Assembly: GCA_022821105.1 (NCBI GenBank)
Contig: JAJEEH010000019.1
Location: 1-63,014, forward strand
Reading direction: 5' to 3'
DNA: 63,014 nucleotides
Source of the DNA: Acidimicrobiia bacterium
GTDB lineage: Bacteria > Actinomycetota > Acidimicrobiia > Acidimicrobiales > Bin134
Under the pieces are notes generated by a model. The model was given only the letters and a program-made list of their open reading frames with translations. It was not told the origin of the DNA and did no database searches. Below, in pieces: positions 43,794 through 63,014 of the stretch (its first letter is position 1; every line of letters starts with the position of its first letter). The translations under genes were made by a program, and so were the position numbers.

Positions 43794-44612
43794 ATGAGCG
43801 ACCGGATCGACGGGGACGAGTACCGGGTTTCCGATGAGGAGAAGGCGTACTTCGCGGAACACGGCTATGTGCATTTGCGGGGGGTGCTGACCAACGACGA
43901 GGTGGGCGAGCTCGAGGCTGTCTACGACCGGTTCCTCCGCCGCGAGATAGAGGTGCCGGGCAAGGACTACTGCGACATGGCCGGCGACTACGGCCGAGAC
44001 CCCGAAGACTTCTCAATCATCAACGTGATGCTGCCCCGGCGCTACTACCCGGCGTGGCAGGGCAACGTCTACGAGCGCCGAACGGCCTCAGCCGCCCGCC
44101 AACTGTGCGGCGACGGGATGACCATCGACTACGACCAGATCCTGGCCAAACAACCATTCAAGCTCGATGCGGTGTTCGCCTGGCACCAGGACATGGCCTA
44201 CTGGCCCGATACCCCCGACACCCGCACGGCCACCTTCTGGCTGGCCATCGACGACTCCACCATCGAGAACGGCTGCATGCGCTTCGTGCCGGCCACCAAT
44301 CGGGAACCGGAGCTGCGCCCCCACACCCCCCAGTACGGTGACCGGGGCGAGTCTCACGCCCTGGGCACCGAATTGCAGGAGGGCGACGAGCCGGTTCCCG
44401 TGCCCATCGCCCGGGGCGACGTGACCGTGCACAACGAGCGGGTGATGCACGGCTCGGGCGGCAACTCCACCGCCGGTTTCCGCCGGGCCTACGTGATCGC
44501 CTATCGATCCGAGGACACGGTGGCCATCGAGCGCCAGCTCGGTTTCACCCACAGCCACAACGACAGCGGCGATGTGCTCGACCAAGTGGGCGTGGAGGGC
44601 CAGACCCGCTAG
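43794..44612 (+). CDS. Phytanoyl-CoA dioxygenase (PhyH) family protein
   Basis: 272 aa. FAEHGYVHLRGVL N-terminus and WHQDMAYW (HxD) motif. Confidence 0.7.
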   Translation: MSDRIDGDEYRVSDEEKAYFAEHGYVHLRGVLTNDEVGELEAVYDRFLRREIEVPGKDYCDMAGDYGRDPEDFSIINVMLPRRYYPAWQGNVYERRTASAARQLCGDGMTIDYDQILAKQPFKLDAVFAWHQDMAYWPDTPDTRTATFWLAIDDSTIENGCMRFVPATNREPELRPHTPQYGDRGESHALGTELQEGDEPVPVPIARGDVTVHNERVMHGSGGNSTAGFRRAYVIAYRSEDTVAIERQLGFTHSHNDSGDVLDQVGVEGQTR

Positions 44613-44617
44613 GGCAG

Positions 44618-46575: not shown

Positions 46576-46584
46576 ATCCCCCAC

Positions 46585-48993: not shown

Positions 48994-48996
48994 GGA

Positions 48997-50439: not shown

Positions 50440-50495
50440 GGTTCCGTCCCCCCGTAGAGATCTGACCCATTACGTTTTCACATTAGGTTGGGGCC

Positions 50496-51530
50496 ATGCG
50501 ACGGGACTCCGACAGATTGCAGATCACTGTCCAGCCCCCTGACCGTTCCCTCGAACCAGTTGACTTCGGCGCTCCGTTCGAGCCTCCCGCCGGTCGGGTG
50601 CTGCACTGCTGGGGCCAGCTCGGAGTCGAGGACCGGCCCCACCTCGTGGAAGACGGCGAGCTCTCGGAATACGAGGCCACCATCGAACCCCAGCCGGGCG
50701 TGGTGAGCACCTATGCCCACGTCCACGACACCAGCGATGGAATCCTCGACGCCTTCTGCCAGGGTGCCGGAAACCTGTTGGCCAAGCGTCCCCAGACCCC
50801 GCTGATCGTGGGGCTTCACGTTCGCCCAGTTGAGAAGGTGGTGGCCAGCGGCGCGTGCAATGAGTCGCTGCGCCGCATGGCGCGGTGCCTGCGCGAGCTG
50901 GATATTCCGGTGTGGCTGCGGATCGGCTACGAGTTCAACCTCAGCTTCGACCCCCACGACACTGAGGCCTACAAGGACCTCTTTCCCCACATCGTCGAAC
51001 TCTTCCGCAAAGAGGAGGCTCACAACGTGGCCGCCACCTGGTGCTCGGCAGCGGGCTCGTTCCAGTTCCGAGACCCGTTCGACTGGTGGCCCGGCAACGA
51101 GTACGTCGACTGGGCGGCCATGGACGTGTTCGCCCCCATTGGTTTCGAGCGCACCGAGACCACCGCCTTCCTCGACCGGTGCCGGGAAGAGAAAAAGCCG
51201 GTGATGATCCCCGAATCCTGCCCGTTCTTCTTCGACTGGAACCTGGTCGACCCTGATCGCCCGGAGTCGTTTCGCGACGGGCTGCTTGAGATCGGCGACA
51301 TCGAGGATCAATGGGCTTGGTACGAAGCCATGTTCGAACTGGTCCGGCGCCGGCCCGAGATCAAGGCCCTTACGGTGATCGCCACCGATTGGCGAGACGG
51401 CATGTTCCCGTTCTACGGGGACACCAGAATCGGCTCTTGGGATGGACTGCCCCCGCGCTATGTCGCCGCGCTGTCCGACCCGCGCTTCATGCACCGACAA
51501 GAGGCCCAAGAGCTCTTCCAGAACCGTTAA
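50496..51530 (+). CDS. Hypothetical protein, possibly GH26-like glycoside hydrolase
   Basis: 344 aa. VWLRIGYEFN and WWPGNEYVDWAAMDVF resemble the GH26 motifs (YYPGDxYVDWvG.D.Y) from memory. No signal peptide is evident. Confidence 0.4.
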   Translation: MRRDSDRLQITVQPPDRSLEPVDFGAPFEPPAGRVLHCWGQLGVEDRPHLVEDGELSEYEATIEPQPGVVSTYAHVHDTSDGILDAFCQGAGNLLAKRPQTPLIVGLHVRPVEKVVASGACNESLRRMARCLRELDIPVWLRIGYEFNLSFDPHDTEAYKDLFPHIVELFRKEEAHNVAATWCSAAGSFQFRDPFDWWPGNEYVDWAAMDVFAPIGFERTETTAFLDRCREEKKPVMIPESCPFFFDWNLVDPDRPESFRDGLLEIGDIEDQWAWYEAMFELVRRRPEIKALTVIATDWRDGMFPFYGDTRIGSWDGLPPRYVAALSDPRFMHRQEAQELFQNR

Positions 51531-51554
51531 CCACGCTGCCGGAAAGGGGGACAG

Positions 51555-53732
51555 ATGACTGACGCGGCCAATGATGACGCGGGTGCCCTGTCCCGCCGGG
51601 TGCTCGACAGCCAAACGGATCAAACCGACGCAGACGATGAGGTGCTGTTCCCCGACGACGTGCTGCCCGGTGTGGGCAGCGAGGAGATGTCGCTGCGGGA
51701 AGGTCTGGCCAAGGGAGGTGTGGCCACCTTTGTCGTGTTGTTGATCCTCAACAGCCTCGACGAGCTTGAAGCGGCGGCGCTTTCCGTCCTCGCTCCCGAA
51801 ATCCGCGACAGCTTCGGAGTCGGCGACGGGGTCATCGTCTTCTTGGGGGCCGCCTCGGTGTCGTTTGTGTTCCTAGGGGCATTGCCCATGGGCTGGCTCG
51901 CCGACCGATTTCGCCGGGGACCGGTCATCGGGGCGGCCAGCCTCGCCTTTGGCTTCTTCTCGCTGCTGTCCGGTCTGGCCCGCAATGTGGCGGTGTTCTT
52001 CTTTGCCCGGCTCGGAACCGGGATCGCCAAGTCCAACACCCTGCCAGTCCACAATTCGCTCATCGCCGACCAGTACCCCATCGGGGTGCGGGGCCGCATC
52101 GCGTCGCTCACCATCATGTCCGGACGCACGGTGAGCATCGTCAGCCCCGTGCTGGTGGGGGGCATTGCCGCCGTCGTCAGCTGGCGTTGGACCTACTACA
52201 CCCTTTGGATCCCGGTGGCCGTGGTGGCCGTGTTGGCCTTCCGGCTCCCTGAGCCGGTGCGAGGCCAGTGGGAGAAGACCGACGTCTTGGGCAAAGCTGG
52301 CGACGCTGTCGACCCGGCCCCCATCTCGCTTGAAGCGGCGTTCGCCCGGCTCAACAAGGTGGCCACCCTGCGCACGGTGCTCCTCGGGTTCGCCGCACTG
52401 GGTTTCGGGCTGTTCAGCCGACCGGTGCTCACCTCGTTGTTCCTCGAGGACGAGTATGGCCTGGGGCCTCTGGGCCGCGGCACCCTAACCACCGCGTCCG
52501 GGGTCGGGGTCATCGCCATCATGCCGTTAGTCGGGCGGCGGTTCGACCGCCTCTACCGCCAGAGCCCCACTCGGGCGATGGCGCTGATCGGCGCGCTAAT
52601 CCTGCCCTCCGCGCTGTTGCTGCCCATCCAGTTCAACATGCCCAACCCGTGGCTTTTCGCCGTGTTGGACGTTCCCGGCACGCTGATGATGTTCGCCGCG
52701 TTCGCCATGGTCGGGCCCCTGATGCAGGCCGTCGTCCCCTACCGGCTTCGGGGCATCGGCTCGGCGCTGTCCACGCTGTACATCTTCTTCATCGGCGCGG
52801 CGGGCGGCGGGCTGCTGTCGGCCATGGTGGTCGATGCCAGCGGCCCCAAGACCACCATCCTGGTGCTGGGCCTGCCCTCCACCATCGTCGGTGGGGCATT
52901 CATGTTGAACGGCGCCCGCCACATCCGGCGGGACCTGTCGCGCAACGTGGCCGAGATACTCGAGGAGCAGGCCGAAAGCAATCGCCAACGGGAGAACCCC
53001 GAGCACATTCCCGCCCTGCAATTGGCCGATATCGACTTCAGCTACGGCAACGTGCAGGTTCTCTTCGACGTGGGCTTTGAAGTCCGCAAGGGCGAGACCC
53101 TGGCCCTGCTGGGCACCAACGGGGCCGGTAAATCGACCATTTTGCGGATCATCGCCGGGCTCGGCACCCCCGAACGGGGAGTGGTGCGCTTGGGCGGCCG
53201 CACCATCACCTTCTCGACCCCCGAGCAGCGAACGGATATGGGAATCCAGACCCTGCTGGGGGGAAGCGGCGTGTGGGCACCGCTCAGCGTTCGCCACAAC
53301 TTGGAAATGGGGGCCTACCAGCTTCGAGACGACAAGGCCGAGCGACAGCGTCGCATCGAGCATGTCCTTGAGCTGTTTCCCGAGCTTCGCTCCCGCCTCG
53401 ACGACCGGGCCGACTCCTTGTCGGGCGGCCAACAGCAGATGCTGGCATTGGCCCGAACGCTGTTGTGCCCGCCCGAAGTCCTCCTCATCGACGAGCTGTC
53501 CCTCGGCTTGGCTCCCACTGCGGTGGCCGAGCTCATAGGCCACATCGAGCGCCTCCAATCCACCGGGCAGACCATCGTCATCGTCGAGCAGTCGCTCAAC
53601 ATCGCCCTCGAATTGGCCGACCGAGCCGTGTTCATCGAGAAGGGCCAAGTGCGGTTTGAAGGGCCGGTCTCTGAACTCGCCGAGCGAGATGACCTGGTCA
53701 GGGCCGTTTTCTTGGGGGATGAGGGGGGCTGA
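51555..53732 (+). CDS. Fusion protein: N-terminal MFS-like 12-TM domain plus C-terminal LivF-type ABC ATPase
   Basis: aa ~50-455 are polytopic and carry MFS motif A (GWLADRFRRGPV). aa ~487-725 carry Walker A GTNGAGKST, signature LSGGQQQMLALA and Walker B LLIDELSLGLAP. It is a single uninterrupted ORF with RBS GGAAAGGGGGA. Confidence 0.8.
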   Translation: MTDAANDDAGALSRRVLDSQTDQTDADDEVLFPDDVLPGVGSEEMSLREGLAKGGVATFVVLLILNSLDELEAAALSVLAPEIRDSFGVGDGVIVFLGAASVSFVFLGALPMGWLADRFRRGPVIGAASLAFGFFSLLSGLARNVAVFFFARLGTGIAKSNTLPVHNSLIADQYPIGVRGRIASLTIMSGRTVSIVSPVLVGGIAAVVSWRWTYYTLWIPVAVVAVLAFRLPEPVRGQWEKTDVLGKAGDAVDPAPISLEAAFARLNKVATLRTVLLGFAALGFGLFSRPVLTSLFLEDEYGLGPLGRGTLTTASGVGVIAIMPLVGRRFDRLYRQSPTRAMALIGALILPSALLLPIQFNMPNPWLFAVLDVPGTLMMFAAFAMVGPLMQAVVPYRLRGIGSALSTLYIFFIGAAGGGLLSAMVVDASGPKTTILVLGLPSTIVGGAFMLNGARHIRRDLSRNVAEILEEQAESNRQRENPEHIPALQLADIDFSYGNVQVLFDVGFEVRKGETLALLGTNGAGKSTILRIIAGLGTPERGVVRLGGRTITFSTPEQRTDMGIQTLLGGSGVWAPLSVRHNLEMGAYQLRDDKAERQRRIEHVLELFPELRSRLDDRADSLSGGQQQMLALARTLLCPPEVLLIDELSLGLAPTAVAELIGHIERLQSTGQTIVIVEQSLNIALELADRAVFIEKGQVRFEGPVSELAERDDLVRAVFLGDEGG

Positions 53733-56566
53733 TGCCGCTGGGGTTCCTCGAGGCCAATCGCCAGCTCATCTTCGACGGGGTGGTGAATGGACTGGTGTAC
53801 GGGATGCTGGCAATGGGAATCGTCCTGGTGTTCCGCTCCTCCCGGGTCATCAATTTCGCGGCCGGAAATCTGGGTTTGCCCGGTGCCGGTCTCTTGGCCC
53901 TATTGGCACTGCGCTGGGACGTCCCCCTCTGGGCCGCGGTACTCACCGCCATTTCGGTGGGCGCCATCTTCGCCGCCATGGTGGAAGCCGGGGTGGTACG
54001 CCGGTTGTTCACCGCGCCGAGAGTGATCCTGCTGGTGGCCACGATCGGAGTCGCCCAGCTAGCTCAGGGCATCCTCTTGGCCTATCCCGAGGTCGGCGGG
54101 GGCATCGGCGTCCGCTATCCCATCATCGTCGACACAACCCTGACCGATGTGGCCGGACTCTTCATCACCGGCCCCCAGCTCAGCGTGCTGATCGTCGCCC
54201 CTCTGGTCGCCATTGCCCTCGGCCTGCTGCTCGACCGCACGCCCTTCGGTCGAACGGTTCAGGCCACCTCGGCTAACCCCGACTTGTCTCGAGTCTCGGG
54301 CATCAACCCGAAGCGGGTCTCGTTCACCATCTGGGTGATTGCCGGGGTGGTGTCCACCATCGCGGTGATCCTGCTGTCGGCCGACCGCAGTGTGAGCGGC
54401 CTTGAGACCGTCGGACTCACCACCATGGCCAATTCCCTGGCTGCCGCAGTCATCGCCCGGATGCGGTCGTTTCCCCTCTCGCTGGTCGGAGGTGTGGTGG
54501 TTGGCGTCACGTTCTCGCTGGTCAAGTTCAACTACCCGGTGGAGGGCGGGCTCTTTGAGTTCGTCCTGCTGATAGGTGTATTAGTGGCGGTGGCGATACA
54601 GCGCCGCCAAGACGACGACTCCCCGGGGCGTTACTCGTTTGCCCCCAGAATCCGCTCCATTCCCCAGCACCTGCTGTCTATCTGGTGGGTTCGGCACCTG
54701 GGCAAGATCGCTCTTGGCCTTGCTGGGGCAATTGCGGTGCTGCTGCCCATTGTCGTTTCCACCCCGTCACGACAGATCACCTACGCCAGCATCCTGGCCT
54801 TTGGGATCTGCGCGGTGTCGGTGGCCATCATCACAGGATGGGCCGGTCAGCTTTCGTTAGGCCAGATGGCCCTTGCCGGAATCGGCGCCGTCTCAGCAGC
54901 CTCTTTCCAGCGGGGCATTCAACTGGACATCGGCTGGGGCGATAATCGGCTGATCGACTTCGAATCCAGCGGCATTCCCTTCGCGGCTGCGGTTGTTCTC
55001 GGAGCGGTGACTGCCGCCGGGTTCGCCGGGCTGGTGGGCGTGGGCGCACTGCGAGTGCGCGGCCTGCTGCTGGCTGTGGCCACGTTTGTTCTCGCCCTGG
55101 CCACCGAGGAATACCTGTTCCGCCGACCCATTTTCAGCGGCGGAAACACCGACTCAGTCTCCTTCCGCCGGGGGCAGCTATTTGGTCTCGACCTCGACAA
55201 TCAGCGCACTTACTACTGGCTGCTGCTCGGGGTCTTGGCTGTGGTGCTAATTGCGGTGGCCCGCATCCACCGCAGCAGTTTTGGACGGGCTATCCGAGCT
55301 CTCCGGGACAACGCCGATGCCTCGGCGGCCTATGGCATTCGCCCGGCGCGAACCAAGCTGCGAGCCTTCGTCTTGGCCGGTGCGGTTGCCGGACTGGGCG
55401 GCGGCCTGCTGGCCGGAGTGATACATCAGGTCCCCCTGACGGGTCGCTTCTTTGGAACCGGGGAATCGCTGCGGCTGATCTCCATGGCCATCATCGGCGG
55501 CATCGGTGCCACCATCGGGCCAGTTTTCGGTGCCCTGTGGGTGATCGGCCTTCCCGCCTTCGCTCCCACCAACCGACTGATCCCCCTGTTCACCTCGGGA
55601 GTCGGCTTGCTGATTCTTCTTTTGTACTTTCCCAGCGGCCTTGTGCAGATCGCCTACTCGGCCCGCGACCGGATCATCACCTGGTTGGAGGTCCGCCGAC
55701 CACCGCCGGTGGCCAAGCAAACCCACACTGTGCCCGCCGCGCTCCCAGCACCGGCCCCAGTTCCCAAGACTTCTGCTCCGGCCCTGGCAGCCACTGAGAT
55801 CTCCGTGCGTTTTGGCGGCCGGCTGGCGGTTGACAACGCCCATATCGAAGTAGCCCCCGGTGAGATTGTGGGACTGATCGGCACCAACGGCGCCGGCAAA
55901 TCGACCCTGATGAACGCCATCGGCGGATTCGTCCCGTCCAAGGGCCGCGTCGAACTCTACGGTGTGCCGATCCACCGCTTCAGGCCCGCCGAGAGATCCC
56001 GGCGAGGACTCGGCCGCACCTTCCAAGCCGCAACCCTGTTTCCCGAGCTCACCGTGCGAGAGACCGTTTTGGTGGCGGCCTCGTCGGCCCCGTCCCACGG
56101 TTCCAGAGGGCCCATGACCACGAGTCGGACAAGGCGAGTCAAGCGCTCCGCCCAGACCCAGGTAAGCGATCTGATCGACTTTCTGGGGCTGGGCCGCTAC
56201 GCCGACCGCCAGATCGCCGACCTCTCCACCGGCACCCGCCGGATCGTAGAGCTGGCCGGCCTCCTCGCCCTCAACGCCCAGATGTTGTGTCTCGACGAGC
56301 CCACCGCCGGAGTGGCCCAGCGAGAGGCCGAGGCCTTCGGACCGCTCATCGTCGAAATCCGCCGCCACCTCAACGCCGCCATGCTCATCGTCGAGCACGA
56401 CATGCCCCTCATCATGTCGATCAGCGACCGCGTCTACTGCCTAGAAGCCGGCTCCATCATCGCTCAAGGCACACCCGAAGAAGTCCGTACCAACCCCGCC
56501 GTCATTACCAGCTACCTAGGCCTGGACACCCGAGCCATCCACCGCAGCGACGCAACCCCCAACTAG
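53732..56566 (+). CDS. Triple fusion: LivH-like permease, LivM-like permease and LivG-type ABC ATPase
   Basis: aa 1-292 are LivH-like (GLVYGMLAMGIVLVFRSSRVINFAAG). aa ~305-655 are LivM-like (GWAGQLSLGQMALAGIGA). aa ~686-944 are the ATPase (GTNGAGKST, LSTGTRRIVELAG, LCLDEPTAGV). The start overlaps the previous stop (TGATG). Confidence 0.8.
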   Translation: MPLGFLEANRQLIFDGVVNGLVYGMLAMGIVLVFRSSRVINFAAGNLGLPGAGLLALLALRWDVPLWAAVLTAISVGAIFAAMVEAGVVRRLFTAPRVILLVATIGVAQLAQGILLAYPEVGGGIGVRYPIIVDTTLTDVAGLFITGPQLSVLIVAPLVAIALGLLLDRTPFGRTVQATSANPDLSRVSGINPKRVSFTIWVIAGVVSTIAVILLSADRSVSGLETVGLTTMANSLAAAVIARMRSFPLSLVGGVVVGVTFSLVKFNYPVEGGLFEFVLLIGVLVAVAIQRRQDDDSPGRYSFAPRIRSIPQHLLSIWWVRHLGKIALGLAGAIAVLLPIVVSTPSRQITYASILAFGICAVSVAIITGWAGQLSLGQMALAGIGAVSAASFQRGIQLDIGWGDNRLIDFESSGIPFAAAVVLGAVTAAGFAGLVGVGALRVRGLLLAVATFVLALATEEYLFRRPIFSGGNTDSVSFRRGQLFGLDLDNQRTYYWLLLGVLAVVLIAVARIHRSSFGRAIRALRDNADASAAYGIRPARTKLRAFVLAGAVAGLGGGLLAGVIHQVPLTGRFFGTGESLRLISMAIIGGIGATIGPVFGALWVIGLPAFAPTNRLIPLFTSGVGLLILLLYFPSGLVQIAYSARDRIITWLEVRRPPPVAKQTHTVPAALPAPAPVPKTSAPALAATEISVRFGGRLAVDNAHIEVAPGEIVGLIGTNGAGKSTLMNAIGGFVPSKGRVELYGVPIHRFRPAERSRRGLGRTFQAATLFPELTVRETVLVAASSAPSHGSRGPMTTSRTRRVKRSAQTQVSDLIDFLGLGRYADRQIADLSTGTRRIVELAGLLALNAQMLCLDEPTAGVAQREAEAFGPLIVEIRRHLNAAMLIVEHDMPLIMSISDRVYCLEAGSIIAQGTPEEVRTNPAVITSYLGLDTRAIHRSDATPN

Positions 56567-56624
56567 AAGACGGCGAAGCCCAATTCGGCAGAGGAAGCTG
56601 CAGCCGCCCGCAGAGATCCCTGGA

Positions 56625-57023
56625 TTATTGAGGCGGGACAACCACTTCGCATTGGATGCCGCTGGCTTTGCTGAGCTTGCGATCCAGCGTGAACAGGGGA
56701 TTGTCGAGCGCCTCGGCGAGCGCCACATACCAAGCGTCGTAGCTGGTCACATTGGCTCGGAGCTCCCAGATGCGCTCGGCCAGCGGACTGAACGGATACA
56801 GCTCGACATCGAGACGCAGCAGGTCGCGAAAGGATGCGGTGGCCTCCAGCCTTGAGACCTGGCCGGACTGCTCCATGCGACGCAAGATGTTGGTCGCTTC
56901 AGCCATTGCCATTTCCGGCGCGGCCAACTGGCCTTGCGCGATAGCCGCTTCGGACCACGGGCCGTCTTGGTCAGAATCGACCAGCGCCGCCACTAATACC
57001 GACGCATCAACGACCGCGGTCAT
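56625..57023 (-). CDS. vapC: Type II toxin VapC (PIN domain ribonuclease)
   Basis: 132 aa. The acidic PIN residues sit in VVDASVLV, ...AEAT..., SYDAWYVALA and FTLD. There is a 4-nt overlap with the upstream antitoxin gene. Confidence 0.8.
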   Translation of the reverse strand: MTAVVDASVLVAALVDSDQDGPWSEAAIAQGQLAAPEMAMAEATNILRRMEQSGQVSRLEATASFRDLLRLDVELYPFSPLAERIWELRANVTSYDAWYVALAEALDNPLFTLDRKLSKASGIQCEVVVPPQ

Positions 57024-57256
57024 CGACGGTCGGCGTCCCGAGCATCAAGGATTTCTGAGGTGGCGATACTGGTACCGGCAGCGTCTTTTCGGCGGCGAAC
57101 CTCATCCAGCCACGAATCCAACGTGGGTCTCTCCGCCATACGTACGAGCTCTGCCCGCAAGTACTCCTGCATCGACTGGCGTTTCAGCGCGGCCCGAGCC
57201 GCCAACGTATCCCGGACTTCCTCGGGAACCCCTCGAATGGTGATTTGCACCGGCAT
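57020..57256 (-). CDS. Ribbon-helix-helix antitoxin (FitA/VapB-like)
   Basis: 78 aa. MPVQITIRGVPEEVRDTLAARAALKRQSMQEYLR is a typical RHH (Arc/MetJ) antitoxin N-terminus. Confidence 0.7.
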   Translation of the reverse strand: MPVQITIRGVPEEVRDTLAARAALKRQSMQEYLRAELVRMAERPTLDSWLDEVRRRKDAAGTSIATSEILDARDADRR

Positions 57257-57262
57257 GACATC

Positions 57263-57268
57263 ATTATG
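57263..57268 (-). promoter_or_regulatory. -10-like hexamer CATAAT, 6 nt upstream of the antitoxin ATG (suggests a leaderless transcript)
   Basis: The minus strand reads ...GCTGTCATAATGATGTC-ATG. There is no Shine-Dalgarno sequence. TGTCAT occurs twice and may be an operator. Confidence 0.25.
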
Positions 57269-57343
57269 ACAGCATCACCAGCAGATTGCATGCAGAGTTC
57301 ACAGCCCTTGCCGATACCTGGGTGCTGATCGGGACACTCGGTC

Positions 57344-57826
57344 TCAGAAGGCGGTGACGACGAAGAAGTCCACTTTGGTGTCGCCGGGTTTGACCGGAAA
57401 ACTGGTGTCGGTCCAGAAAAGGAGTTCCCCGTCGTCTCCATAGATGGTCGCGGTCACGTCGTACATGGACTCGGGGTCCAACTCTCCCGTCCACGACAGC
57501 TCATATTGCAGCGGGAGCGTGGTCACGCCGGTATGAACCTGCTCGGCAAGGACCACCGACGGGGCGTCGAGCAAGGAGACATCCTCAAGCCGCACCACCA
57601 CCCGAGACGACGGAATATGCGACAGCTCAAAAGCGCCCTCGATGGTGATGTCGCCCGTCAGCGTGCTTATGACGGGAACAGCCGTTGGCGCCGCTGACTC
57701 GTCGCCATTCCCGGTTGATGGATCATCGTCGTTGCCGCAGGCGCTTGCCAGAACGGCCAGAGCAATCCCTAAGACGAGGAGAACGCGGGCTGCCGCGGGA
57801 TACCTGATTCGGAGTTGCATTCTCAT
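57344..57826 (-). CDS. Lipoprotein, possibly YbaY-like
   Basis: Signal peptide with lipobox LASAC and strong RBS AAAGGAG. The mature part (RVVVRLEDVSLLDAPSVVLAEQ...LPLQYEL...YDVTATIY) resembles YbaY-type lipoproteins from memory. Confidence 0.5.
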   Translation of the reverse strand: MRMQLRIRYPAAARVLLVLGIALAVLASACGNDDDPSTGNGDESAAPTAVPVISTLTGDITIEGAFELSHIPSSRVVVRLEDVSLLDAPSVVLAEQVHTGVTTLPLQYELSWTGELDPESMYDVTATIYGDDGELLFWTDTSFPVKPGDTKVDFFVVTAF

Positions 57827-57880
57827 TGGTTGCTCCTTTACATCTCTCTTGACTGTGAATTAGACGCTGCTCTTGTCCGT

Positions 57881-58576
57881 CTAGTTCCCGAGGTGCGAAA
57901 CGCTCAACAGCAAATCGGCCAGTTCTTGGGGGCGGGAGGCGAAGGCGCTGTGGCCGGCGTCGAGGGTGACGATCTCGTCGGCTTGGGCGGTGCGGGCCTG
58001 TTCTCGCTGGTAGGCGGGCGGGAGGGCCTCGTCTTTCTCCAGCAGGATGTAGGTGGAAGGGACGCCAGGGGGTCCGGTGGCCACCGTTACCTTCTCGGCC
58101 ATCGGGCCGGGGGGCTCAGGACCGAGGCGGGACAGAAGCCAAGCTGAGGCCTCGGCATCGAGGTCGTTGCAGAACATAGATTCGAAGTCCACTTCCCGGG
58201 AGATGGGCGACAGCGGGTCGTTCATTCGGTCTTCCACCGACTGCCCCACCGGTGGGTTTGTGGTGGACAAATACACCAGCCGCCGCAACCGACTCACCAG
58301 TGGGTGGGCAGCCGAAGGAAGCGTGATCCCGGCCAATGAATGCCCCACCAGCACCACATCGTGCAGATCGCGGCTCTCGATCTCCCGAACCACGTCGTAG
58401 GCGTAATCGTCCAGACAGACCTCATCAAGGGGCTTCTCATCCAATCGAGCCCCATGCCCAACCAAGTCAATCGCCACCACGTGTTCAACTTGAGGACTCG
58501 CCTCGAGAATCGGAACCACCTGCTCCCAACACCAAGCCCCATGAGCCGCCCCGTGAACCAACACAAAATTCGCCAC
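57881..58576 (-). CDS. Alpha/beta hydrolase (esterase-like)
   Basis: 231 aa. FVLVHGAAHGAWCW and the nucleophile elbow GHSLAG. Confidence 0.75.
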   Translation of the reverse strand: MANFVLVHGAAHGAWCWEQVVPILEASPQVEHVVAIDLVGHGARLDEKPLDEVCLDDYAYDVVREIESRDLHDVVLVGHSLAGITLPSAAHPLVSRLRRLVYLSTTNPPVGQSVEDRMNDPLSPISREVDFESMFCNDLDAEASAWLLSRLGPEPPGPMAEKVTVATGPPGVPSTYILLEKDEALPPAYQREQARTAQADEIVTLDAGHSAFASRPQELADLLLSVSHLGN

Positions 58577-58675
58577 CCCCCGGTTCTAGCAAATGCCAGA
58601 TGAGCACCCGCTGCCACTCCGAACAAGATGGGTTGCTAGTTGCCTAGGGAAACACGGGGCTACGCTCGCCAATCG

Positions 58676-61600
58676 ATGGGCCGGTTGGAAGATCTCACCA
58701 AGGGCGCACGAGTCGCAGGCGTTGCCCCGATAGGGGTGGTCACGGTGATCGACGCCGAATGGATCGGTTCGGATGCGGTGAACCTCACCTACGAAGACGA
58801 CAGCGGCAACGTCCAGCGAGAAATCGTCTACCGAGCGAAGGAACAGGAACTTTCCCTCGAAGACGACGGCCGACCTTGGTCTTTCGACGCCGATCCTGAG
58901 CTGTTCACCCTGGTGGCCGAAGCCAAGCGGATCAGTTTGGCCCACCTGTTCGACCCCTATCTGGCCACCTACACCAGCGACGTCGATCCGCTCCCCCATC
59001 AGATCGAAGCGGTCTATACCGAAATGCTCCCCCGTCGCCCGCTCAGATTCTTGCTGGCCGACGACCCCGGCGCGGGCAAGACCATCATGGCTGGACTGTT
59101 AATTAAGGAGCTGATCGTTCGGGGAGACCTAGACAGGTGCCTCATCGTGGTCCCCGGCGGGTTAGCCGAACAGTGGCAAGATGAGCTGGGCGAAAAATTT
59201 GGCCTCGAGTTCGAACTGTTCACCCGAGCCATGGTGGAGGACACCCGCTCCGGCAATCCTCTGGCTGAACGCCCCCGGCTCATCGCCCGCCTCGACATGC
59301 TGGCCCGAGACGAGGACCTCCAAGCCCAACTCGACCGCACCGACTGGGATCTCGTGGTGGTGGACGAGGCCCACAAGATGTCGGCCACATACCGGGGCGA
59401 CGACGTCGAACAGACCAAGCGCTACAAGCTCGGCCGACGCCTTGAGGCCGTGGCCCGCCACTTCCTTTTGATGACGGCCACGCCGCACAACGGCAAGCCC
59501 GAGGACTTCCAGTTGTTCATGGCGCTCTTGGACGGGGACATGTTCGCCGGCAAGTACCGCCGGGGCGCCCACAGCGACAAGCCGGCGAAAGACCTGATGC
59601 GCCGCCGCATCAAAGAAGACCTGCTCCGCTTCGACGGCACCCGGCTGTTCCCCGAGCGGGAGGCCACCACTGCCAAATACACGCTGAGCCCGGCCGAGCT
59701 CGACTTGTACGAGCATGTCACCGAGTACGTCCGCAACGGGATGAACCGGGCCGAGCAGCTCCGAAAAGAAGGCCAGGGCCGACGCTCGGCTGTGGTCGGC
59801 TTTGCCCTCACCATCTTGCAGCGGCGACTGGCGTCATCGCCTCGGGCCATCCTTCGATCTCTGGAACGACGGCGCGAGCGCCTGTCAGCCCGCCTGGCCG
59901 AGGCTGAACAAGCCCGAACTGAGCCAGCCTCAAACATCAATGACGACATCGAGATGCTGGGTGAGGTTCCAGAGGGCTACCGCCCGTCTGACTTCGACGA
60001 CTTCGACCCCGATGAGCTGTTGGCCAGCGAGACCGAGGAGTTCGAAGACCAGATTCAGGTTGAGGCCACACCCGCCCGCACCATCGCCGAGCTGAAGGCC
60101 GAGATCAGCGACCTCGACGGCCTCGTCAAAAGAGCCCAGGTCGTCTACCAGCGAGGTGACGACCGCAAGTGGGACGAACTAGCCAAACTCCTGCAAGGCA
60201 CGCCCGAAATGCTCGATAACAACGGCCGCATCAAGAAGCTGATCATCTTCACCGAACACCGGGACACCCTCGACTATCTGGTCGAGCGGCTTGGCCGCCT
60301 CCGGGGCCGAATCGACGAGGTTGTCGCCATCCACGGCGGAGTTCGCCGCGAGGAACGACGCCGAGTGCAGGATCAGTTCACCCAAGACGACCAAGTGCGC
60401 ATCTTGGTGGCCACCGACGCCGCCGGAGAGGGCCTCAACCTCCAGCGGGCCCACCTGATGGTGAACTACGACCTGCCCTGGAACCCCAATCGAATCGAGC
60501 AGCGGTTCGGGCGCATCCACCGCATCGGACAGACAGAGGTATGCCGACTGTGGAACATGGTGGCCGAGGACACCCGAGAAGGCCAGGTGTTCGAGCGGTT
60601 GTTGGAAAAGTTGGACGAGCAGCGAGACGCCTTGGGCGGCAAGGTGTTCGATGTGCTCGGAGAAGCCTTCTCCGACAAATCGCTGCGCGAGCTGCTCATC
60701 GAGGCGATCACCGCCGAAGAACCCGCCATCCAACAACTCCGCATGACCGCGGTGATCGACGCCACGGTGGGAGACCGGATGAGGGAGCTGATCGAAGAGC
60801 AGTCCCTTCTGTCTGATGTGCTGAGCGATGCTCGAATCGACGGCATACGCGACCAAATGGAACGGGCCCAGGCCATGCGCTTGCAGCCCAGCTTCATCCG
60901 CCGGTTCTTCTTCGGGGCATTCGGCCTGCTCAATGGAAAGGTCACCAGGCGGGAGGCGAGTCGCTGCCAGATCTCCCGAGTGCCGCCATCCTTGCGGAAC
61001 TGGGACACCGCCCAAGGCCGCGGCCGGCTGTTAGCCAGCTACGAGCGAATCTGCTTCGAGCGGGAGCAGATCACTGTTCCCGGTCGGCCCATGGCCGATC
61101 TGGTATCGCCCGGCCATCCCCTGCTCGACGCCACCATCGGCGCTCTGTTGGAACGCCACGGCTCGCTGCTCCAGCAAGGCAGCATCCTCATCGACCCCGA
61201 TTCCACCAGCGAGCAGCGCAAGGTGCTGGTGCTTCTGGAACACGAGATCGTCGACGGCACTGCCGTCGACCGCGGCCAGCGCCGAGTGGTGTCCAAGCAA
61301 TTCGAATACGTGGAGATCACGGAGGGCGGCGAGATCGCCGACGCCGGTGAACACCCCTACTTGGACTGCCGCTCCCCAGAGCCCGACGAGCTTGAACTCG
61401 TGACCCCGTTGGCCACCGCCGACTGGGTGCGGGACACGCTCACCACCAAGGCGCTCAATCACGCAATAGCCCACAACGTCCCCCAACATCTCGCGGAGGT
61501 TGAGGCCCGAATCCACTCCCAGGTTGACCGGACCCTCGATGCAGTTCGACAACGCCTCAAAGAAGAGATCAAGCACTGGGACGCCCGAGTGCTGCGGCTC

Positions 61601-62209
61601 AAGAACGACGAGTTGGCCGGCAAGCCCAACGCCCGTATCAACTCAGCCAAAGCCCGCCAGCGAGCCGAAGAAGCCGAAGAACGCCTGGACCGACGAGAAG
61701 AAGAACTGGCCCGCCAGCGCAAACTCTCACCCTTGGCTCCCCGAATAGTCGGTGCAGCCTTTATCATTCCCGAACATCTGTTGGCCGCACTTGCTGGCAC
61801 CCCACCCCCCTCACACGCCATCGACACCACCCGTTCCGACCGCCTAGCCATCGACGCCGTGCTCGCCGCCGAACGATCCCTAGGCCGAGACCCCATCGAG
61901 ATGCCCCACAACAACAAGGGCTTCGATATCGAGACCCGCAACCACGACGGCCACATCCTGACCATCGAGGTCAAAGGCCGCGTCGCCGGGGCAACCGACT
62001 TCTCCATCACCCCCTCCGAGATCCTGTGCGCCCTCAACAAAGCCGACCGCCACATCCTCGCCCTCGTCGAAGTCTCCGACGATGACACCACCGAAGTCCG
62101 CTACCTTTACGACCCCTTCACCAACCGAGAACCCGAACCCAGCCCCGCCGAACACAAACGCACCCTCGACTGGCAAACCTACTGGGAGCTTGCTGAACCG
62201 CCGAGGTGA
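58676..62209 (+). CDS. SNF2-family helicase fused to a C-terminal DUF3883 / PD-(D/E)xK nuclease-like domain
   Basis: Motif I ADDPGAGKT (GAGKT codons at 59069..59083), motif II VVVDEAHKM, TATPHNG and motif VI QRFGRIHRIGQ. A coiled-coil segment follows, then C-terminal GFDIETRNHDGHILTIEVKG (D at 61925, E-V-K at 61967..61975). ATG at 58676 (the ORF track starts at TTG 58640). Confidence 0.8.
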   Translation: MGRLEDLTKGARVAGVAPIGVVTVIDAEWIGSDAVNLTYEDDSGNVQREIVYRAKEQELSLEDDGRPWSFDADPELFTLVAEAKRISLAHLFDPYLATYTSDVDPLPHQIEAVYTEMLPRRPLRFLLADDPGAGKTIMAGLLIKELIVRGDLDRCLIVVPGGLAEQWQDELGEKFGLEFELFTRAMVEDTRSGNPLAERPRLIARLDMLARDEDLQAQLDRTDWDLVVVDEAHKMSATYRGDDVEQTKRYKLGRRLEAVARHFLLMTATPHNGKPEDFQLFMALLDGDMFAGKYRRGAHSDKPAKDLMRRRIKEDLLRFDGTRLFPEREATTAKYTLSPAELDLYEHVTEYVRNGMNRAEQLRKEGQGRRSAVVGFALTILQRRLASSPRAILRSLERRRERLSARLAEAEQARTEPASNINDDIEMLGEVPEGYRPSDFDDFDPDELLASETEEFEDQIQVEATPARTIAELKAEISDLDGLVKRAQVVYQRGDDRKWDELAKLLQGTPEMLDNNGRIKKLIIFTEHRDTLDYLVERLGRLRGRIDEVVAIHGGVRREERRRVQDQFTQDDQVRILVATDAAGEGLNLQRAHLMVNYDLPWNPNRIEQRFGRIHRIGQTEVCRLWNMVAEDTREGQVFERLLEKLDEQRDALGGKVFDVLGEAFSDKSLRELLIEAITAEEPAIQQLRMTAVIDATVGDRMRELIEEQSLLSDVLSDARIDGIRDQMERAQAMRLQPSFIRRFFFGAFGLLNGKVTRREASRCQISRVPPSLRNWDTAQGRGRLLASYERICFEREQITVPGRPMADLVSPGHPLLDATIGALLERHGSLLQQGSILIDPDSTSEQRKVLVLLEHEIVDGTAVDRGQRRVVSKQFEYVEITEGGEIADAGEHPYLDCRSPEPDELELVTPLATADWVRDTLTTKALNHAIAHNVPQHLAEVEARIHSQVDRTLDAVRQRLKEEIKHWDARVLRLKNDELAGKPNARINSAKARQRAEEAEERLDRREEELARQRKLSPLAPRIVGAAFIIPEHLLAALAGTPPPSHAIDTTRSDRLAIDAVLAAERSLGRDPIEMPHNNKGFDIETRNHDGHILTIEVKGRVAGATDFSITPSEILCALNKADRHILALVEVSDDDTTEVRYLYDPFTNREPEPSPAEHKRTLDWQTYWELAEPPR

Positions 62210-62395
62210 CGGCCCGCGCCCTCCCACCTAATGCTCCAGGCAAGCAAATCGACATCACTTCAGCAGTTCGGCTGCGGATGCCACGCGGCCGACACAGCCA
62301 AGCAGTTCGCCGGATTGCTCTGGCAGACCAAGCTCGTGGTCTGCGAAGATGGTTCGTCCTACTGGCACTATGGATGCGAGACAGGAACCTGATCA

Positions 62396-62872
62396 GTGGC
62401 AACTAGCAGGCACTATAGCGACGAGGAGCTTGCCGGGCTTCGGTCAGCACCAAAGCAGGTGACCAACCCGCGTGCACGCTGGACGAAAAAGCCTGGGCAT
62501 CGCCAGCGCAACTTCCAAGCACGCGACCAGCAAGACGAATCAGTTCGCTTCTCGATCTACCAACGACAGAGTCTCCACGACGACAACGACTTCTCATGTG
62601 GGATCGAATTCATCCCCAGGGTCGGGGCACGTCTGACTCTGGCGCGCTACAACGGACCAAGCCACCGGCATGGTGAGATTGTCTATCGCCCGCACATCCA
62701 CCGCGCCACAGCCAGAGCGATCGCGGCAGGCAAGAAGCCTGAGTCAGAGGCAGACGAGACCGACCGATATACCAACCTAGAGGGTGCCTTGAGATGCTTG
62801 GTTGAAGACTTCCACTTAGACGGGCTCAGCATCTCGAACGACAATCAGACGAGACTCTTCAATGGCGCTTGA
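62396..62872 (+). CDS. Hypothetical protein (158 aa), unknown family
   Basis: GTG start with AGGAA 8 nt upstream and no internal Met. His-rich core ARYNGPSHRHGEIVYRPHIHRAT. Codon third positions are clearly less G/C-biased than in the bulk of the window. Confidence 0.5.
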   Translation: MATSRHYSDEELAGLRSAPKQVTNPRARWTKKPGHRQRNFQARDQQDESVRFSIYQRQSLHDDNDFSCGIEFIPRVGARLTLARYNGPSHRHGEIVYRPHIHRATARAIAAGKKPESEADETDRYTNLEGALRCLVEDFHLDGLSISNDNQTRLFNGA

Positions 62873-63014
62873 TACAGACTCCCTTAGAAAGCTCCTGTGC
62901 GAGCGCCTCTGCCAAGAGGTGGACGTCGAGAAGCGACCCGACGGTGAACTCATGCTGCGCACTCACTTCGAGTTCCCCGACGGAGATAGCTACCCCTTCT
63001 ATTTGTCGGAAGCA
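62862..63014 (+). CDS. Hypothetical protein, 3' end cut by the window edge
   Basis: ATG at 62862 overlaps the previous gene by 11 nt. It is open to the end of the window (MALDTDSLRKLLCERLCQEVDVEKRPDGELMLRTHFEFPDGDSYPFYLSEA). It is faintly reminiscent of DUF1828-type N-termini (low-confidence recollection). Confidence 0.4.
   Translation, partial: MALDTDSLRKLLCERLCQEVDVEKRPDGELMLRTHFEFPDGDSYPFYLSEA

What the first reader, a model, noticed from the sequence alone, without database searches (positions are those of the whole stretch)
58676..62209. A stand-alone SNF2 helicase with a DUF3883/PD-(D/E)xK nuclease-like tail is a candidate single-protein or core defence gene
The 1177-aa protein contains, in order:
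- a ~120-aa unknown N-domain;
- a complete SNF2/SF2 core (ADDPGAGKT, DEAH, TATPHNG, QRFGRIHRIGQ);
- ~400 aa of unassigned helical and coiled-coil sequence;
- a C-terminal block GFDIETRN...ILTIEVKG...ILALVEV that fits a D...(D/E)xK restriction-endonuclease-fold signature (DUF3883 as I remember it).

No methyltransferase, specificity subunit or other known partner (DISARM, BREX, Dpd) lies upstream in the window. The neighbours are a vapBC pair and small unknown ORFs, and codon usage looks foreign.

Helicase-nuclease fusions of this general kind have been shown to give abortive-infection-type phage resistance. Hna is the example I recall, but I cannot verify homology here.
Basis: partly seen in the sequence, partly recalled or inferred. 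Interest (0 to 1): 0.65.

Follow-up and report, generated by a model that had tools for sequence, protein, structure and literature searches.

The report
HmaA helicase-nuclease of an Hma system
The gene is an intact copy of HmaA, a published anti-phage helicase-nuclease; it looks "stand-alone" only because the contig ends 805 bases after it, where related genomes carry its methylase and ATPase partners.

Summary
Window 58676..62209 (+) encodes a 1177-aa protein with a Swi2/Snf2 core and a C-terminal NOV_C/DUF3883 PD-(D/E)xK domain.

It is not new. It matches PADLOC's HmaA profile end to end (1440 bits; the next best, DrmD, scores 421). HmaA is the helicase of the Hma (helicase-methylase-ATPase) system, also called Type-1 BREX-related. 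The SNF2-DUF3883 architecture was described in 2013. In 2024 Halomonas meridiana HmaA alone was shown to protect E. coli from T4, and that protection needs the nickase residues D1084/E1104/K1106/E1121. These correspond here to D1084/E1098/K1100/E1115, which are conserved across the family.

"Stand-alone" is not established. The window ends 805 nt downstream, inside an embedded two-gene cassette (orf158 plus a DUF1828 gene). A syntenic relative that aligns to the last window base continues into hmaB (DUF1156 methylase) and hmaC (HEPN-DUF499 ATPase).

The gene is accessory. Among 17 related Acidimicrobiales genomes (several labelled Ca. Poriferisocius), four carry it intact at this site, four carry remnants and nine lack it. 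The closest relative by flanking DNA has an empty site.

Hna, DrmD and RapA are not the right families. Verdict: already known, low interest.

The parts
58596..58675 (+). Left junction of the Hma island and the 5' untranslated/promoter region of hmaA
   Evidence: Homology to the closest relative without the island (L007, 96 % nt upstream) stops at window 58595. Homology to Hma-bearing relatives resumes at 58614-58657.
58676..62209 (+). hmaA coding sequence (1177 aa), the Swi2/Snf2 helicase - PD-(D/E)xK nuclease of the Hma / Type-1 BR defence system
   Evidence: ORF. PADLOC HmaA PDLC00659: 1440 bits, query 1-1156 against profile 1-1154/1176. Pfam SNF2-rel_dom, Helicase_C and NOV_C.
58676..58855 (+). 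N-terminal small beta-barrel (aa ~1-60), reported as a Tudor domain in this helicase family
   Evidence: The AlphaFold model has strands 12-14, 21-30, 34-40 and 46-52, with pLDDT 71-84. The Tudor assignment comes from PMC12839542 and was not tested on its own here.
59069..59083 (+). Walker A / motif I, GAGKT (aa 132-136)
   Evidence: Invariant in 29 homologues. K135 and T136 are each kept in 92 of 93 divergent members. T136 corresponds to the mutated T136 of H. meridiana HmaA.
59363..59374 (+). Motif II, DEAH (aa 230-233)
   Evidence: Invariant; 92-93 of 93.
60191..60529 (+). Helicase_C lobe (aa 506-618), with motif VI QRFGRIHRIGQ (aa 609-619) at its end
   Evidence: Pfam Helicase_C, E 1.3e-24. 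R610 is kept in 93 of 93. The R610A mutation abolishes defence in H. meridiana HmaA.
60593..61726 (+). Middle region (aa ~640-1017): helical and mixed alpha/beta modules plus a long coiled coil (aa 922-1015)
   Evidence: It matches only the HmaA profile in PADLOC (284 bits for aa 709-1018). PMC12839542 describes it as an inactive REase plus an alpha+beta domain; this was not tested here.
61841..62104 (+). NOV_C / DUF3883 PD-(D/E)xK nuclease domain (aa 1056-1143). Catalytic residues: D1084 (61925-61927), E1098-V-K1100 (61967-61975), E1115 (62018-62020)
   Evidence: Pfam NOV_C, E 5.8e-15. Residue conservation. The domain model (pLDDT 85) matches SPARDA DREN nucleases, Hjc resolvases and the NhoI restriction enzyme.
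62396..62872 (+). orf158, first gene of a two-gene cassette embedded downstream of hmaA; function unknown
   Evidence: No Pfam, PADLOC or NCBIfam hit. It has 711 homologues. In four independent contexts it is followed by a 259-aa DUF1828 gene.
62862..63014 (+). First 51 codons of the DUF1828 gene, second gene of the cassette, cut by the end of the window
   Evidence: The gene is called on the ENA copy of the contig. It aligns with L004 14186..14965, a 259-aa protein with Pfam DUF1828 (E 4e-17) and PADLOC PDC-M24B (E 1e-10).

Best explanation
**What it is.** The gene is hmaA, the helicase-nuclease effector of an Hma defence system (helicase-methylase-ATPase, also called a Type-1 BREX-related system). 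It sits in a variable chromosomal hotspot of a marine Acidimicrobiales bacterium; its closest relatives include genomes labelled Ca. Poriferisocius.

**Shown here.**
- The protein is intact.
- It is a full-length family member.
- It keeps every ATPase and nuclease residue that was shown to matter in the Halomonas meridiana orthologue.
- It is accessory: present, decayed or absent at the same site in close relatives.

**Shown in the literature for the family.**
- HmaA alone reduces T4 propagation about 100-fold in E. coli.
- Helicase motif VI is required for that defence.
- Full defence needs the C-terminal domain, a Mn2+-dependent nickase of supercoiled DNA.
- Infected cells stop growing rather than lyse.

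**Inferred mechanism.** The Snf2 motor loads on or translocates along invading or replicating DNA. ATP binding or hydrolysis then licenses the PD-(D/E)xK domain to nick that DNA. In the complete system the DUF1156 N6-adenine methylase (HmaB) would mark self DNA. The HEPN-DUF499 AAA+ ATPase (HmaC) would act as a sensor or scaffold and possibly as a back-up RNase.

**Inferred for this genome.** hmaB and hmaC most likely lie beyond the contig end, after the embedded orf158-DUF1828 cassette. This is the arrangement in the syntenic relative L004/L020.
For: **Family membership.**
- PADLOC HmaA: 1440 bits end to end, against 421 for the best DrmD model.
- The N-terminal, middle and C-terminal pieces each hit HmaA best.
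- Pfam finds SNF2-rel_dom, Helicase_C and NOV_C.

**Catalytic residues.**
- Conserved in 29 close members and 93 divergent members.
- The spacing K+15 to E, then E+14 to A and E+16 to V, equals that of the published E1121, A1135 and V1137.

**Nuclease fold.** The C-terminal model (pLDDT 85) matches Hjc, SPARDA DREN and NhoI, all PD-(D/E)xK enzymes. This reproduces the Hjc similarity reported in PMC11232893.

**Context in relatives.**
- L004/L005/L020 have the same upstream genes and the same orf158 and DUF1828 genes. They then carry hmaB (PADLOC 1148 bits) and HEPN-DUF499 hmaC (419 bits on its first 486 aa).
- L021 and L022, whose HmaA is 97 % identical in protein, also carry a full hmaB.

**Accessory status.**
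- Of 17 relatives found through the neighbouring ABC gene, 4 have intact hmaA, 4 have 85-149-aa remnants and 9 have none.
- The flanking genes ABC944 and PepM1 are directly adjacent in L008, L016 and L018.
- L007, 96 % identical in the flank, has the empty site.

**Literature.** PMC8565338, PMC11232893, bioRxiv 10.1101/2024.01.29.577857, PMC12839542, PMC3710099.
Against: - hmaB and hmaC are not visible. The window and the only public copy of this contig both end inside the DUF1828 gene, so a complete system in this genome is an inference.
- Relatives show that the alternative is real. L006 has an intact hmaA (89 % identical, all catalytic residues kept) with no hmaB or hmaC before the right-hand flanking gene.
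- L010 has the same orf158-DUF1828 tail as the window, but a shattered hmaA and only a 33-aa hmaC remnant.
- The role of HmaB as a self-marking methylase is unproven. The only test reported (T4 grown on an HmaB-expressing host) showed no effect.
- No experiment exists for this orthologue or for any actinobacterial HmaA.
Confidence: 0.88

Rival explanations
1. This genome carries a truly solitary HmaA. hmaB and hmaC have been lost, and the gene works as a single-protein, methylation-independent, abortive-infection-like nickase.
For: - H. meridiana HmaA alone defends E. coli against T4 and is not toxic without HmaB.
- About 15-19 % of hmaA loci lack hmaB or hmaC.
- Relative L006 has an intact hmaA with all catalytic residues, followed by small genes and then the conserved right flank, with no hmaB or hmaC.
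Against: - The only relatives with an intact hmaA and the same orf158-DUF1828 tail (L004/L005/L020) have hmaB and hmaC.
- The two closest HmaA sequences (97 % identical, L021 and L022) are followed by a full hmaB.
- The absence of partners in the window says nothing either way, because the sequence stops.
Confidence: 0.27
2. It is a decaying or inactive remnant of a former Hma system and no longer has a function.
For: Four of 17 relatives carry only hmaA fragments at this site (L010, L013, L015, L023). hmaB is interrupted by an IS481-family transposase in L002/L009. Erosion of this island is therefore common.
Against: - The reading frame is uninterrupted over 1177 codons.
- All ATPase and nuclease residues are intact.
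- The protein is 97 % identical to those of L021 and L022.
Confidence: 0.04
3. It is a housekeeping RapA-like Swi2/Snf2 factor that recycles RNA polymerase, or another core chromatin or transcription factor.
For: RapA is the closest solved structure by sequence (E 1.8e-33 over aa 77-291) and by fold (E 3e-29). Both proteins have an N-terminal beta-barrel region ahead of the Snf2 core.
Against: - The NCBIfam RapA equivalog scores 161.6 bits against a cut-off of 576.
- RapA similarity covers only the motor, and the whole-model TM-score is 0.28-0.38.
- RapA has no NOV_C nuclease domain.
- The gene is absent from 9 of 17 close relatives and decayed in 4 more, so it is not a syntenic core gene.
Confidence: 0.01
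4. It is the DrmD helicase of a DISARM system, or the BrxHII helicase of a type-3 BREX system.
For: These are the next-best PADLOC hits (DrmD 421 bits, BrxHI/II 343 and 332 bits). They belong to the same Swi2/Snf2 clade, and PMC12839542 derives the Hma helicase from BrxHII-like ancestors.
Against: - The NCBIfam DrmD equivalog scores 387 bits against a cut-off of 610.
- HmaA scores about 1000 bits higher than either.
- DrmD and ZorD lack NOV_C.
- No DrmA, DrmB, DrmC, PglZ or BrxC gene is present in the window's neighbourhood or in the syntenic loci.
Confidence: 0.01

Closest known systems
HmaA of Halomonas meridiana SCSIO 43005 (Hma system; Liu et al. 2024, PMC11232893; system named by Payne et al. 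2021, PMC8565338)
   Same: - The same Pfam domains (SNF2-rel_dom, Helicase_C, NOV_C) and nearly the same length (1177 aa here; about 1183 aa computed from the published coordinates).
- T136, R610 and D1084 even carry the same residue numbers.
- The ExK and fourth-glutamate motifs and the downstream A/V positions have the same spacing.
- The nuclease domain resembles the Hjc resolvase in both.
- Other genes are embedded between hmaA and hmaB in both.
   Different: - The host is an actinobacterium, not a gammaproteobacterium.
- The loop between D1084 and ExK is 6 residues shorter here.
- The embedded cargo is orf158-DUF1828 here, Septu there.
- hmaB and hmaC cannot be seen here because the contig ends.
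- I could not align the Halomonas sequence directly, as it was not in hand. The correspondence rests on the PADLOC HmaA profile and the published residue numbers.
Type-1 BREX-related (BR) system helicase-REase (Rakesh & Krishnan 2026, PMC12839542); first noted as an SNF2-DUF3883 REase in R-M-like operons with HEPN-DUF499 (Anantharaman et al. 2013, PMC3710099)
   Same: - The architecture is an N-terminal small barrel, a Swi2/Snf2 core, a middle region and a C-terminal active PD-(D/E)xK domain.
- The syntenic relative has the HEPN-fused DUF499 ATPase and the DUF1156 methylase that define the type.
   Different: Nothing contradicts membership. The Tudor and inactive-REase assignments of the N-terminal and middle regions were not verified independently here.
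DrmD (DISARM) and BrxHII (type-3 BREX) Swi2/Snf2 helicases
   Same: A homologous motor and part of the middle region. PADLOC DrmD aligns aa 99-1016 and BrxHII aligns aa 73-786.
   Different: Neither has a C-terminal NOV_C nuclease. Their partner genes differ. The NCBIfam DrmD score is below its cut-off.
Hna and Nhi, single-protein helicase-nuclease defences
   Same: The functional logic is the same: one polypeptide combines a helicase 'sensor' with a nuclease 'effector', and the phenotype is abortive-infection-like.
   Different: - The helicase families differ. Hna is ResIII/Helicase_C_2 and about 840 aa; Nhi is SF1 DUF2075 and about 610 aa (PMC11232893, Table 2).
- No PADLOC hit to either appeared among the hits shown.
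- The relationship is analogy, not homology beyond the SF2 level.
RapA (E. coli RNA-polymerase recycling Swi2/Snf2 ATPase)
   Same: The closest solved structure for the motor and for the overall N-terminal layout.
   Different: RapA is a housekeeping protein with no nuclease domain. Its equivalog score is far below the cut-off. The gene here is accessory.

Membership tests
HmaA (Hma / Type-1 BR helicase-nuclease) | Full-length match to the family profile | tested here: met
   PADLOC PDLC00659: E = 0, 1440 bits, query 1-1156 against profile 1-1154 of 1176. The N-terminal, middle and C-terminal pieces each hit HmaA best.
HmaA (Hma / Type-1 BR helicase-nuclease) | Swi2/Snf2 core with intact motifs I (GxGKT), II (DEAH) and VI (QRxGRxxRxGQ) | tested here: met
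   Pfam SNF2-rel_dom and Helicase_C. K135, T136, D230, E231, H233, R610, R613 and R616 are present and conserved.
HmaA (Hma / Type-1 BR helicase-nuclease) | C-terminal NOV_C/DUF3883 domain with the PD-(D/E)xK fold and the D...ExK...E residues | tested here: met
   Pfam NOV_C, E 5.8e-15. D1084, E1098, K1100 and E1115 are conserved. The domain model (pLDDT 85) matches Hjc, SPARDA DREN and NhoI.
HmaA (Hma / Type-1 BR helicase-nuclease) | N-terminal Tudor domain and an inactive REase plus alpha+beta middle modules (PMC12839542) | tested here: inconclusive
   The model shows a four-strand barrel at aa 12-52 and mixed alpha/beta elements at aa 755-890. The whole-protein fold search returned only Snf2 motors, and these domains were not searched separately.
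Hma system (three genes) | Linked hmaB (DUF1156 N6-adenine methyltransferase) on the same strand | not testable with these tools
   The window and its public contig end 805 nt after hmaA. hmaB is present in syntenic relatives L004/L020 (1148 bits), L021 and L022 (1098 bits). It is truncated by an IS in L002 and absent in L006.
Hma system (three genes) | Linked hmaC (DUF499 AAA+ ATPase, often HEPN-fused) | not testable with these tools
   It would lie beyond the window end. It is present in L004/L005 as HEPN_Swt1+DUF499, 1114 aa, with PADLOC HmaC at 419 bits on its first 486 aa.
Hma system (three genes) | Anti-phage activity that depends on the helicase and nuclease residues | not testable with these tools
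   Shown only for the H. meridiana orthologue against T4.
DISARM DrmD | Score above the NCBIfam equivalog cut-off, and neighbouring drmA/drmB/drmC or methylase genes | tested here: not met
   NF038317 scores 387.4 bits against a cut-off of 610. No Drm partner is present in the window neighbourhood or in syntenic loci.
RapA | Score above the equivalog cut-off, and a syntenic core gene in relatives | tested here: not met
   NF003426 scores 161.6 bits against a cut-off of 576. The gene is absent from 9 and decayed in 4 of 17 close relatives.
Hna | ResIII plus Helicase_C_2 SF2 helicase of about 840 aa with its own C-terminal nuclease (as tabulated in PMC11232893) | tested here: not met
   Pfam finds Helicase_C, not Helicase_C_2, in a 1177-aa protein with a Snf2 core. 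No Hna model is among the hits listed (top 25 of 60). I did not verify that the library holds an Hna model, and no direct alignment to an Hna sequence was made.
Type-3 BREX BrxHII | Best match to the BrxHII profile, no nuclease fusion, and linkage to PglZ and BrxC | tested here: not met
   BrxHII scores 332 bits against 1440 for HmaA. A NOV_C nuclease is present. No PglZ or BrxC gene is seen in the syntenic loci.

The most novel reading that the evidence does not exclude
The interesting part may be what is embedded behind hmaA. The pair orf158 (62396..62872) plus the DUF1828 gene (from 62862) may be an autonomous, uncharacterised two-gene defence or toxin-antitoxin-like module.

- It travels independently of Hma.
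- It is found next to HNH and Eco29kI-type nucleases, a terminase remnant and AddAB-like genes in other genomes (the only named source is Chloroflexota).
- It survives intact where hmaA has been shattered (L010).

In that reading, the ABC944|PepM1 intergenic site in these marine Acidimicrobiales genomes is a fast-turnover defence hotspot, and this genome may run a solitary HmaA alongside the cassette.
Probability: 0.3. Interest if true: 0.4.

Novelty: already known. Interest (0 to 1): 0.15.

Why it matters
For annotation, it turns a 'DUF3883 domain-containing / helicase-related protein' into a named defence gene.

It also gives a caution for window-based scans. 'No partner genes' was an edge effect here, because the partners of this system lie downstream of a contig break.

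Biologically it adds little to what is published on Hma. The modest extra value has two parts. It documents gain, decay and loss of an Hma island at one chromosomal site across 17 related Acidimicrobiales genomes. It also flags an embedded two-gene cassette as a testable defence candidate.

Tried and rejected
1. **Longer copy of the contig.** I looked up the window protein in public assemblies to get past the window end. The only copy (ENA KELL22-1 scaffold_2161) ends about 22 nt beyond the window, so the downstream genes of this genome could not be read.
2. **Whole-protein fold search.** Only Snf2 motors came back (RapA best, TM 0.28-0.38). This said nothing about the N-terminal and middle domains. 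I therefore modelled the C-terminal 160 aa separately, which worked.
3. **PDB sequence search.** There is no solved HmaA. Only the motor matches.
4. **orf158.** Pfam, PADLOC and NCBIfam gave nothing. Its PADLOC partner model (PDC-M24A) was not hit. Only the DUF1828 gene weakly matches PDC-M24B.
5. **'Foreign' composition.** GC3 of hmaA is within one standard deviation of the window's long ORFs. I rejected it as evidence and used presence/absence instead.
6. **Mobility markers.** There are no tRNA genes in 50000..63014 and no integrase next to the island in the loci read. The way the island moves remains unknown.
7. **Families considered and rejected on scores and context.** DrmD, BrxHII, DpdE, ZorD and RapA.
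8. **Hna.** Rejected on domain composition only; no Hna sequence was available for a direct alignment.

Full report
**1. Observation**

The reading frame is real and sits at the stated coordinates: ATG 58676 to stop 62209 on the + strand, 1177 aa. A TTG at 58640 would add 12 residues, but homologues begin at MGRLEDL/MARLEDL, so 58676 is the start.

- ADDPGAGKT, aa 128-136
- DEAH, aa 230-233
- TATPHNG, aa 267-273
- QRFGRIHRIGQ, aa 609-619
- the GFDIE...IEVKG...ILALVEV block, aa 1082-1133

Pfam places SNF2-rel_dom at aa 125-291, Helicase_C at aa 506-618 and NOV_C (PF13020, the former DUF3883) at aa 1056-1143 with E 5.8e-15.

The upstream neighbours are:
- an alpha/beta hydrolase, 57881..58576 (-)
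- a YscW-like lipoprotein, 57344..57826 (-)
- a FitA-like RHH antitoxin, 57020..57256 (-)
- a PIN toxin, 56625..57023 (-)

The one exception is 'foreign codon usage'. GC3 of the gene is 0.786, against 0.82 +/- 0.05 for the window's long ORFs.

**2. What it is**

Against PADLOC-DB the protein matches HmaA (PDLC00659) from residue 1 to 1156, covering profile positions 1-1154 of 1176, at 1440 bits. The next families are far behind:
- DrmD, 421 bits
- BrxHI, 343 bits; BrxHII, 332 bits
- DrmA, 232 bits
- DpdE, 136 bits
- ZorD, 88 bits

The N-terminal 100 aa, the middle 310 aa and the C-terminal 160 aa each hit HmaA best when scanned alone. The nuclease tail otherwise matches only Tiamat TmtA and PDC-S36.

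The NCBIfam equivalogs for DrmD (387 bits, cut-off 610) and RapA (162 bits, cut-off 576) are both sub-threshold.

The family is large. There are 4712 clusters at 50 % identity with E <= 1e-30, and most of the 150 best-scoring clusters listed align over nearly the whole length.

**3. What is already known about the family**

- Anantharaman et al. [quoted passage not shown]
- Payne et al. (2021) named the three-gene operon Hma (helicase HmaA, methylase HmaB, ATPase HmaC). They found 1,638 instances in 26 phyla (PMC8565338).
- Liu et al. (2024) worked on H. meridiana HmaA (PMC11232893):
  - HmaA alone protects E. coli from T4.
  - R610A (motif VI) abolishes defence, and T136A enhances it.
  - The NOV_C domain is a Mn2+-dependent nickase of supercoiled DNA.
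  - The quadruple mutant D1084A/E1104A/K1106A/E1121A loses defence.
  - The phenotype is abortive-infection-like without lysis.
  - About 85 % of hmaA loci have hmaB and about 81 % have hmaC.
- Payne et al. (2024) showed that 62.7 % of Hma systems carry other genes embedded between the hma genes, and that many of these are defence systems (bioRxiv 10.1101/2024.01.29.577857).
- Rakesh & Krishnan (2026) reclassified Hma as the 'Type-1 BREX-related system'. They described the helicase as Tudor + Swi2/Snf2 + inactive REase + alpha+beta domain + C-terminal active PD-(D/E)xK REase (PMC12839542).

**4. Catalytic residues**

In 29 homologues at 55-90 % identity, K135, T136, D230-E231-A232-H233, Q609-R610, R613, R616, D1084, E1098, K1100 and E1115 are invariant.

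| Residue | Kept in 93 divergent full-length members (33-66 % identity) |
|---|---|
| R610 | 93 |
| K135 | 92 |
| D230 | 92 |
| E231 | 92 |
| D1084 | 88 |
| K1100 | 87 |
| E1115 | 83 (8 more have Q) |
| E1098 | 82 |

The numbering T136, R610 and D1084 coincides with the Halomonas protein. The spacings K+15 to E, E+14 to A and E+16 to V reproduce its E1121, A1135 and V1137. Only the loop between D and ExK is 6 residues shorter.

**5. Structure**

The full-length AlphaFold model is of medium quality (pLDDT 73.5, pTM 0.49). It shows:
- an N-terminal four-strand barrel, aa 12-52
- the two RecA-like lobes
- a long coiled coil, aa 922-1015
- a compact C-terminal alpha/beta domain

Its fold matches are Snf2 motors, with RapA best (E 3e-29, TM 0.28-0.38). 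RapA is also the best match by sequence in the PDB. No HmaA structure has been solved.

The C-terminal 160 aa were modelled separately (pLDDT 85, pTM 0.75). This model has the alpha-beta-beta-beta-alpha-beta core, with D1084 just before the first core strand, E1098-x-K1100 in the next strand and E1115 in the following helix. It matches the following, all PD-(D/E)xK enzymes:
- SPARDA DREN nucleases
- archaeal Hjc Holliday-junction resolvases (E about 1e-4, target TM about 0.6)
- the NhoI restriction enzyme

This independently reproduces the published similarity to Hjc.

**6. 'Stand-alone' is an edge effect, or at least unproven**

The window ends 805 nt after the stop codon. The only public copy of the contig ends about 22 nt later.

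Two genes lie downstream in the window. One is a 158-aa ORF (62396..62872) with no family match. The other is the first 51 codons of an ORF starting at 62862.

The relative L004/L005 (JGI and ENA contigs; HmaA 88 % identical) has the same upstream genes. It aligns with the window at 85.6 % DNA identity from 58614 to 63013, the last-but-one base. It then continues with:
- the same 158-aa gene
- a 259-aa DUF1828 protein (PADLOC PDC-M24B, E 1e-10)
- a DUF4238 gene
- hmaB (DUF1156, 921 aa, PADLOC 1148 bits)
- four small genes, including one with DUF6338
- hmaC (HEPN_Swt1+DUF499, 1114 aa, PADLOC 419 bits on its first 486 aa)

The two closest HmaA sequences (97 % identical, L021 and L022) are also followed by a complete hmaB.

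Two relatives show that a solitary hmaA is possible:
- L006 has an intact hmaA with all catalytic residues, followed by three small genes and then the conserved right-hand flank, without hmaB or hmaC.
- L010 has the window's orf158-DUF1828 tail, but a shattered hmaA and only a 33-aa hmaC remnant.

I put the chance that this genome has hmaB and hmaC at about two in three.

**7. Core or accessory?**

I used the neighbouring ABC-transporter gene (53732..56566) as an anchor. This recovered 17 closely related genomes, all Acidimicrobiales MAGs, several labelled Ca. Poriferisocius and one 'marine group Sva0996'.

The conserved flanks are this ABC gene on the left and an M1 aminopeptidase gene, followed by hopanoid-synthesis genes, on the right. 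The contents between the flanks vary:

| State at this site | Loci |
|---|---|
| Intact hmaA | L009, L020, L021, L022 |
| hmaA fragments of 85-149 aa | L010, L013, L015, L023 |
| No hmaA | L007, L008, L011, L012, L014, L016, L017, L018, L019 |

- L019 is only 63 % identical in the ABC protein and is the most distant of the 17.
- In L008, L016 and L018 the two flanking genes are less than 100 bp apart.
- L007 is the closest relative by flanking DNA (96 % over 13 kb). It carries the vapBC pair and the hydrolase and then runs straight into the aminopeptidase gene. Homology with the window stops at 58595.
- hmaA is 94 % identical in DNA to that of L021, while the flanks are 88 % identical. This points to exchange between lineages.

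The gene is accessory.

**8. Mechanism**

*Shown for the family:* motor-dependent and nickase-dependent inhibition of T4, with growth arrest rather than lysis.

*Inferred:*
- The Snf2 motor engages phage or replicating DNA.
- Its nucleotide state licenses the PD-(D/E)xK domain to nick that DNA.
- In complete systems the DUF1156 N6-adenine methylase marks self DNA.
- The HEPN-DUF499 ATPase senses or scaffolds, and may act as a last-resort RNase.

The self-marking role of HmaB is not demonstrated. The single published test was negative.

**9. Verdict**

This is an intact, ordinary member of a named and experimentally characterised defence family, sitting in a variable hotspot.
- Novelty: already known.
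- Interest: low.
- Residual interest lies in the embedded orf158-DUF1828 cassette. It is a conserved pair found in unrelated contexts without Hma, and it outlives hmaA in L010.

Noticed in passing
window 62396..62872 and 62862..63014; L004 13720..14965; L080, L081, L082 and L083 around 8001..9256: orf158 has no family match, yet it has 711 homologues at 60-70 % identity, the only named ones being Chloroflexota. It is followed by an overlapping 259-aa DUF1828 gene (weak PADLOC PDC-M24B hit) in every context inspected. In three of those contexts no Hma genes lie within the 8 kb read on either side; the neighbours there are HNH_2, RE_Eco29kI, a terminase remnant and UvrD/PDDEXK genes. It looks like an autonomous mobile two-gene module and a candidate defence or TA-like system.
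   Followed up: partly
between window 56566 (end of the ABC gene) and beyond the window end; L007-L023: The intergenic site between the ABC-transporter gene and an M1 aminopeptidase gene is a variable hotspot in these Acidimicrobiales genomes. It is empty (<100 bp) in L008, L016 and L018. Elsewhere it holds different combinations of vapBC, a YscW-like lipoprotein, a hydrolase, PhyH and the Hma island. No tRNA gene or integrase was seen next to it.
   Followed up: partly
L010 15308..17651; L013 14327..14689; L015 13630..14076; L023 14317..14571: Four relatives keep only 85-149-aa fragments of hmaA at the same site. In L010 the gene is broken into four alignable pieces while the downstream orf158-DUF1828 pair stays intact. 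This suggests repeated decay of the Hma system in this lineage.
   Followed up: partly
window 58657..62210 vs L021 13611..17164, and flanks 44001..56553 vs L021 989..13544: hmaA is more similar to the L021 copy (94.1 % nt) than the flanking core genes are (88.4 %). The relative with the most similar flanks (L007, 96 %) lacks the gene. This incongruence suggests recombination or horizontal exchange of the island.
   Followed up: no
L002 16684..18870 (the same genome as L009): In the 90 %-identical relative, hmaB (DUF1156) is truncated to 420 aa by an IS481-family transposase. A second hmaB-like piece follows the insertion.
   Followed up: no
L022 17134..18654; L002 20678..22174; L002 13602..14228; L006 12537..13073: Other cargo sits inside or next to the Hma island in relatives: a Ser/Thr kinase matching PADLOC mad6/PD-T4-6 (E 1e-50), an NYN-domain protein weakly matching HEC-09, a SocA_Panacea antitoxin-like gene, and DUF6338 and DUF4238 genes. 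This fits the published 'embedding' of defence genes in Hma.
   Followed up: partly
window 56625..57256 (-) and 57344..57826 (-): The vapBC-type pair (PIN toxin plus FitA-like RHH antitoxin) is itself variable. It is present in L007, L010, L012 and L014, replaced by a distant PIN gene in several others, and absent in L004. The YscW-like lipoprotein gene (about window 57314..57880) is missing from L007, the closest relative.
   Followed up: partly
window 50496..51530 (+): A conserved 344-aa ORF with no precomputed Pfam hit in the contig gene tables lies between the periplasmic-binding-protein gene and the two fused permease/ATPase ABC genes. It is syntenic in all close relatives.
   Followed up: no
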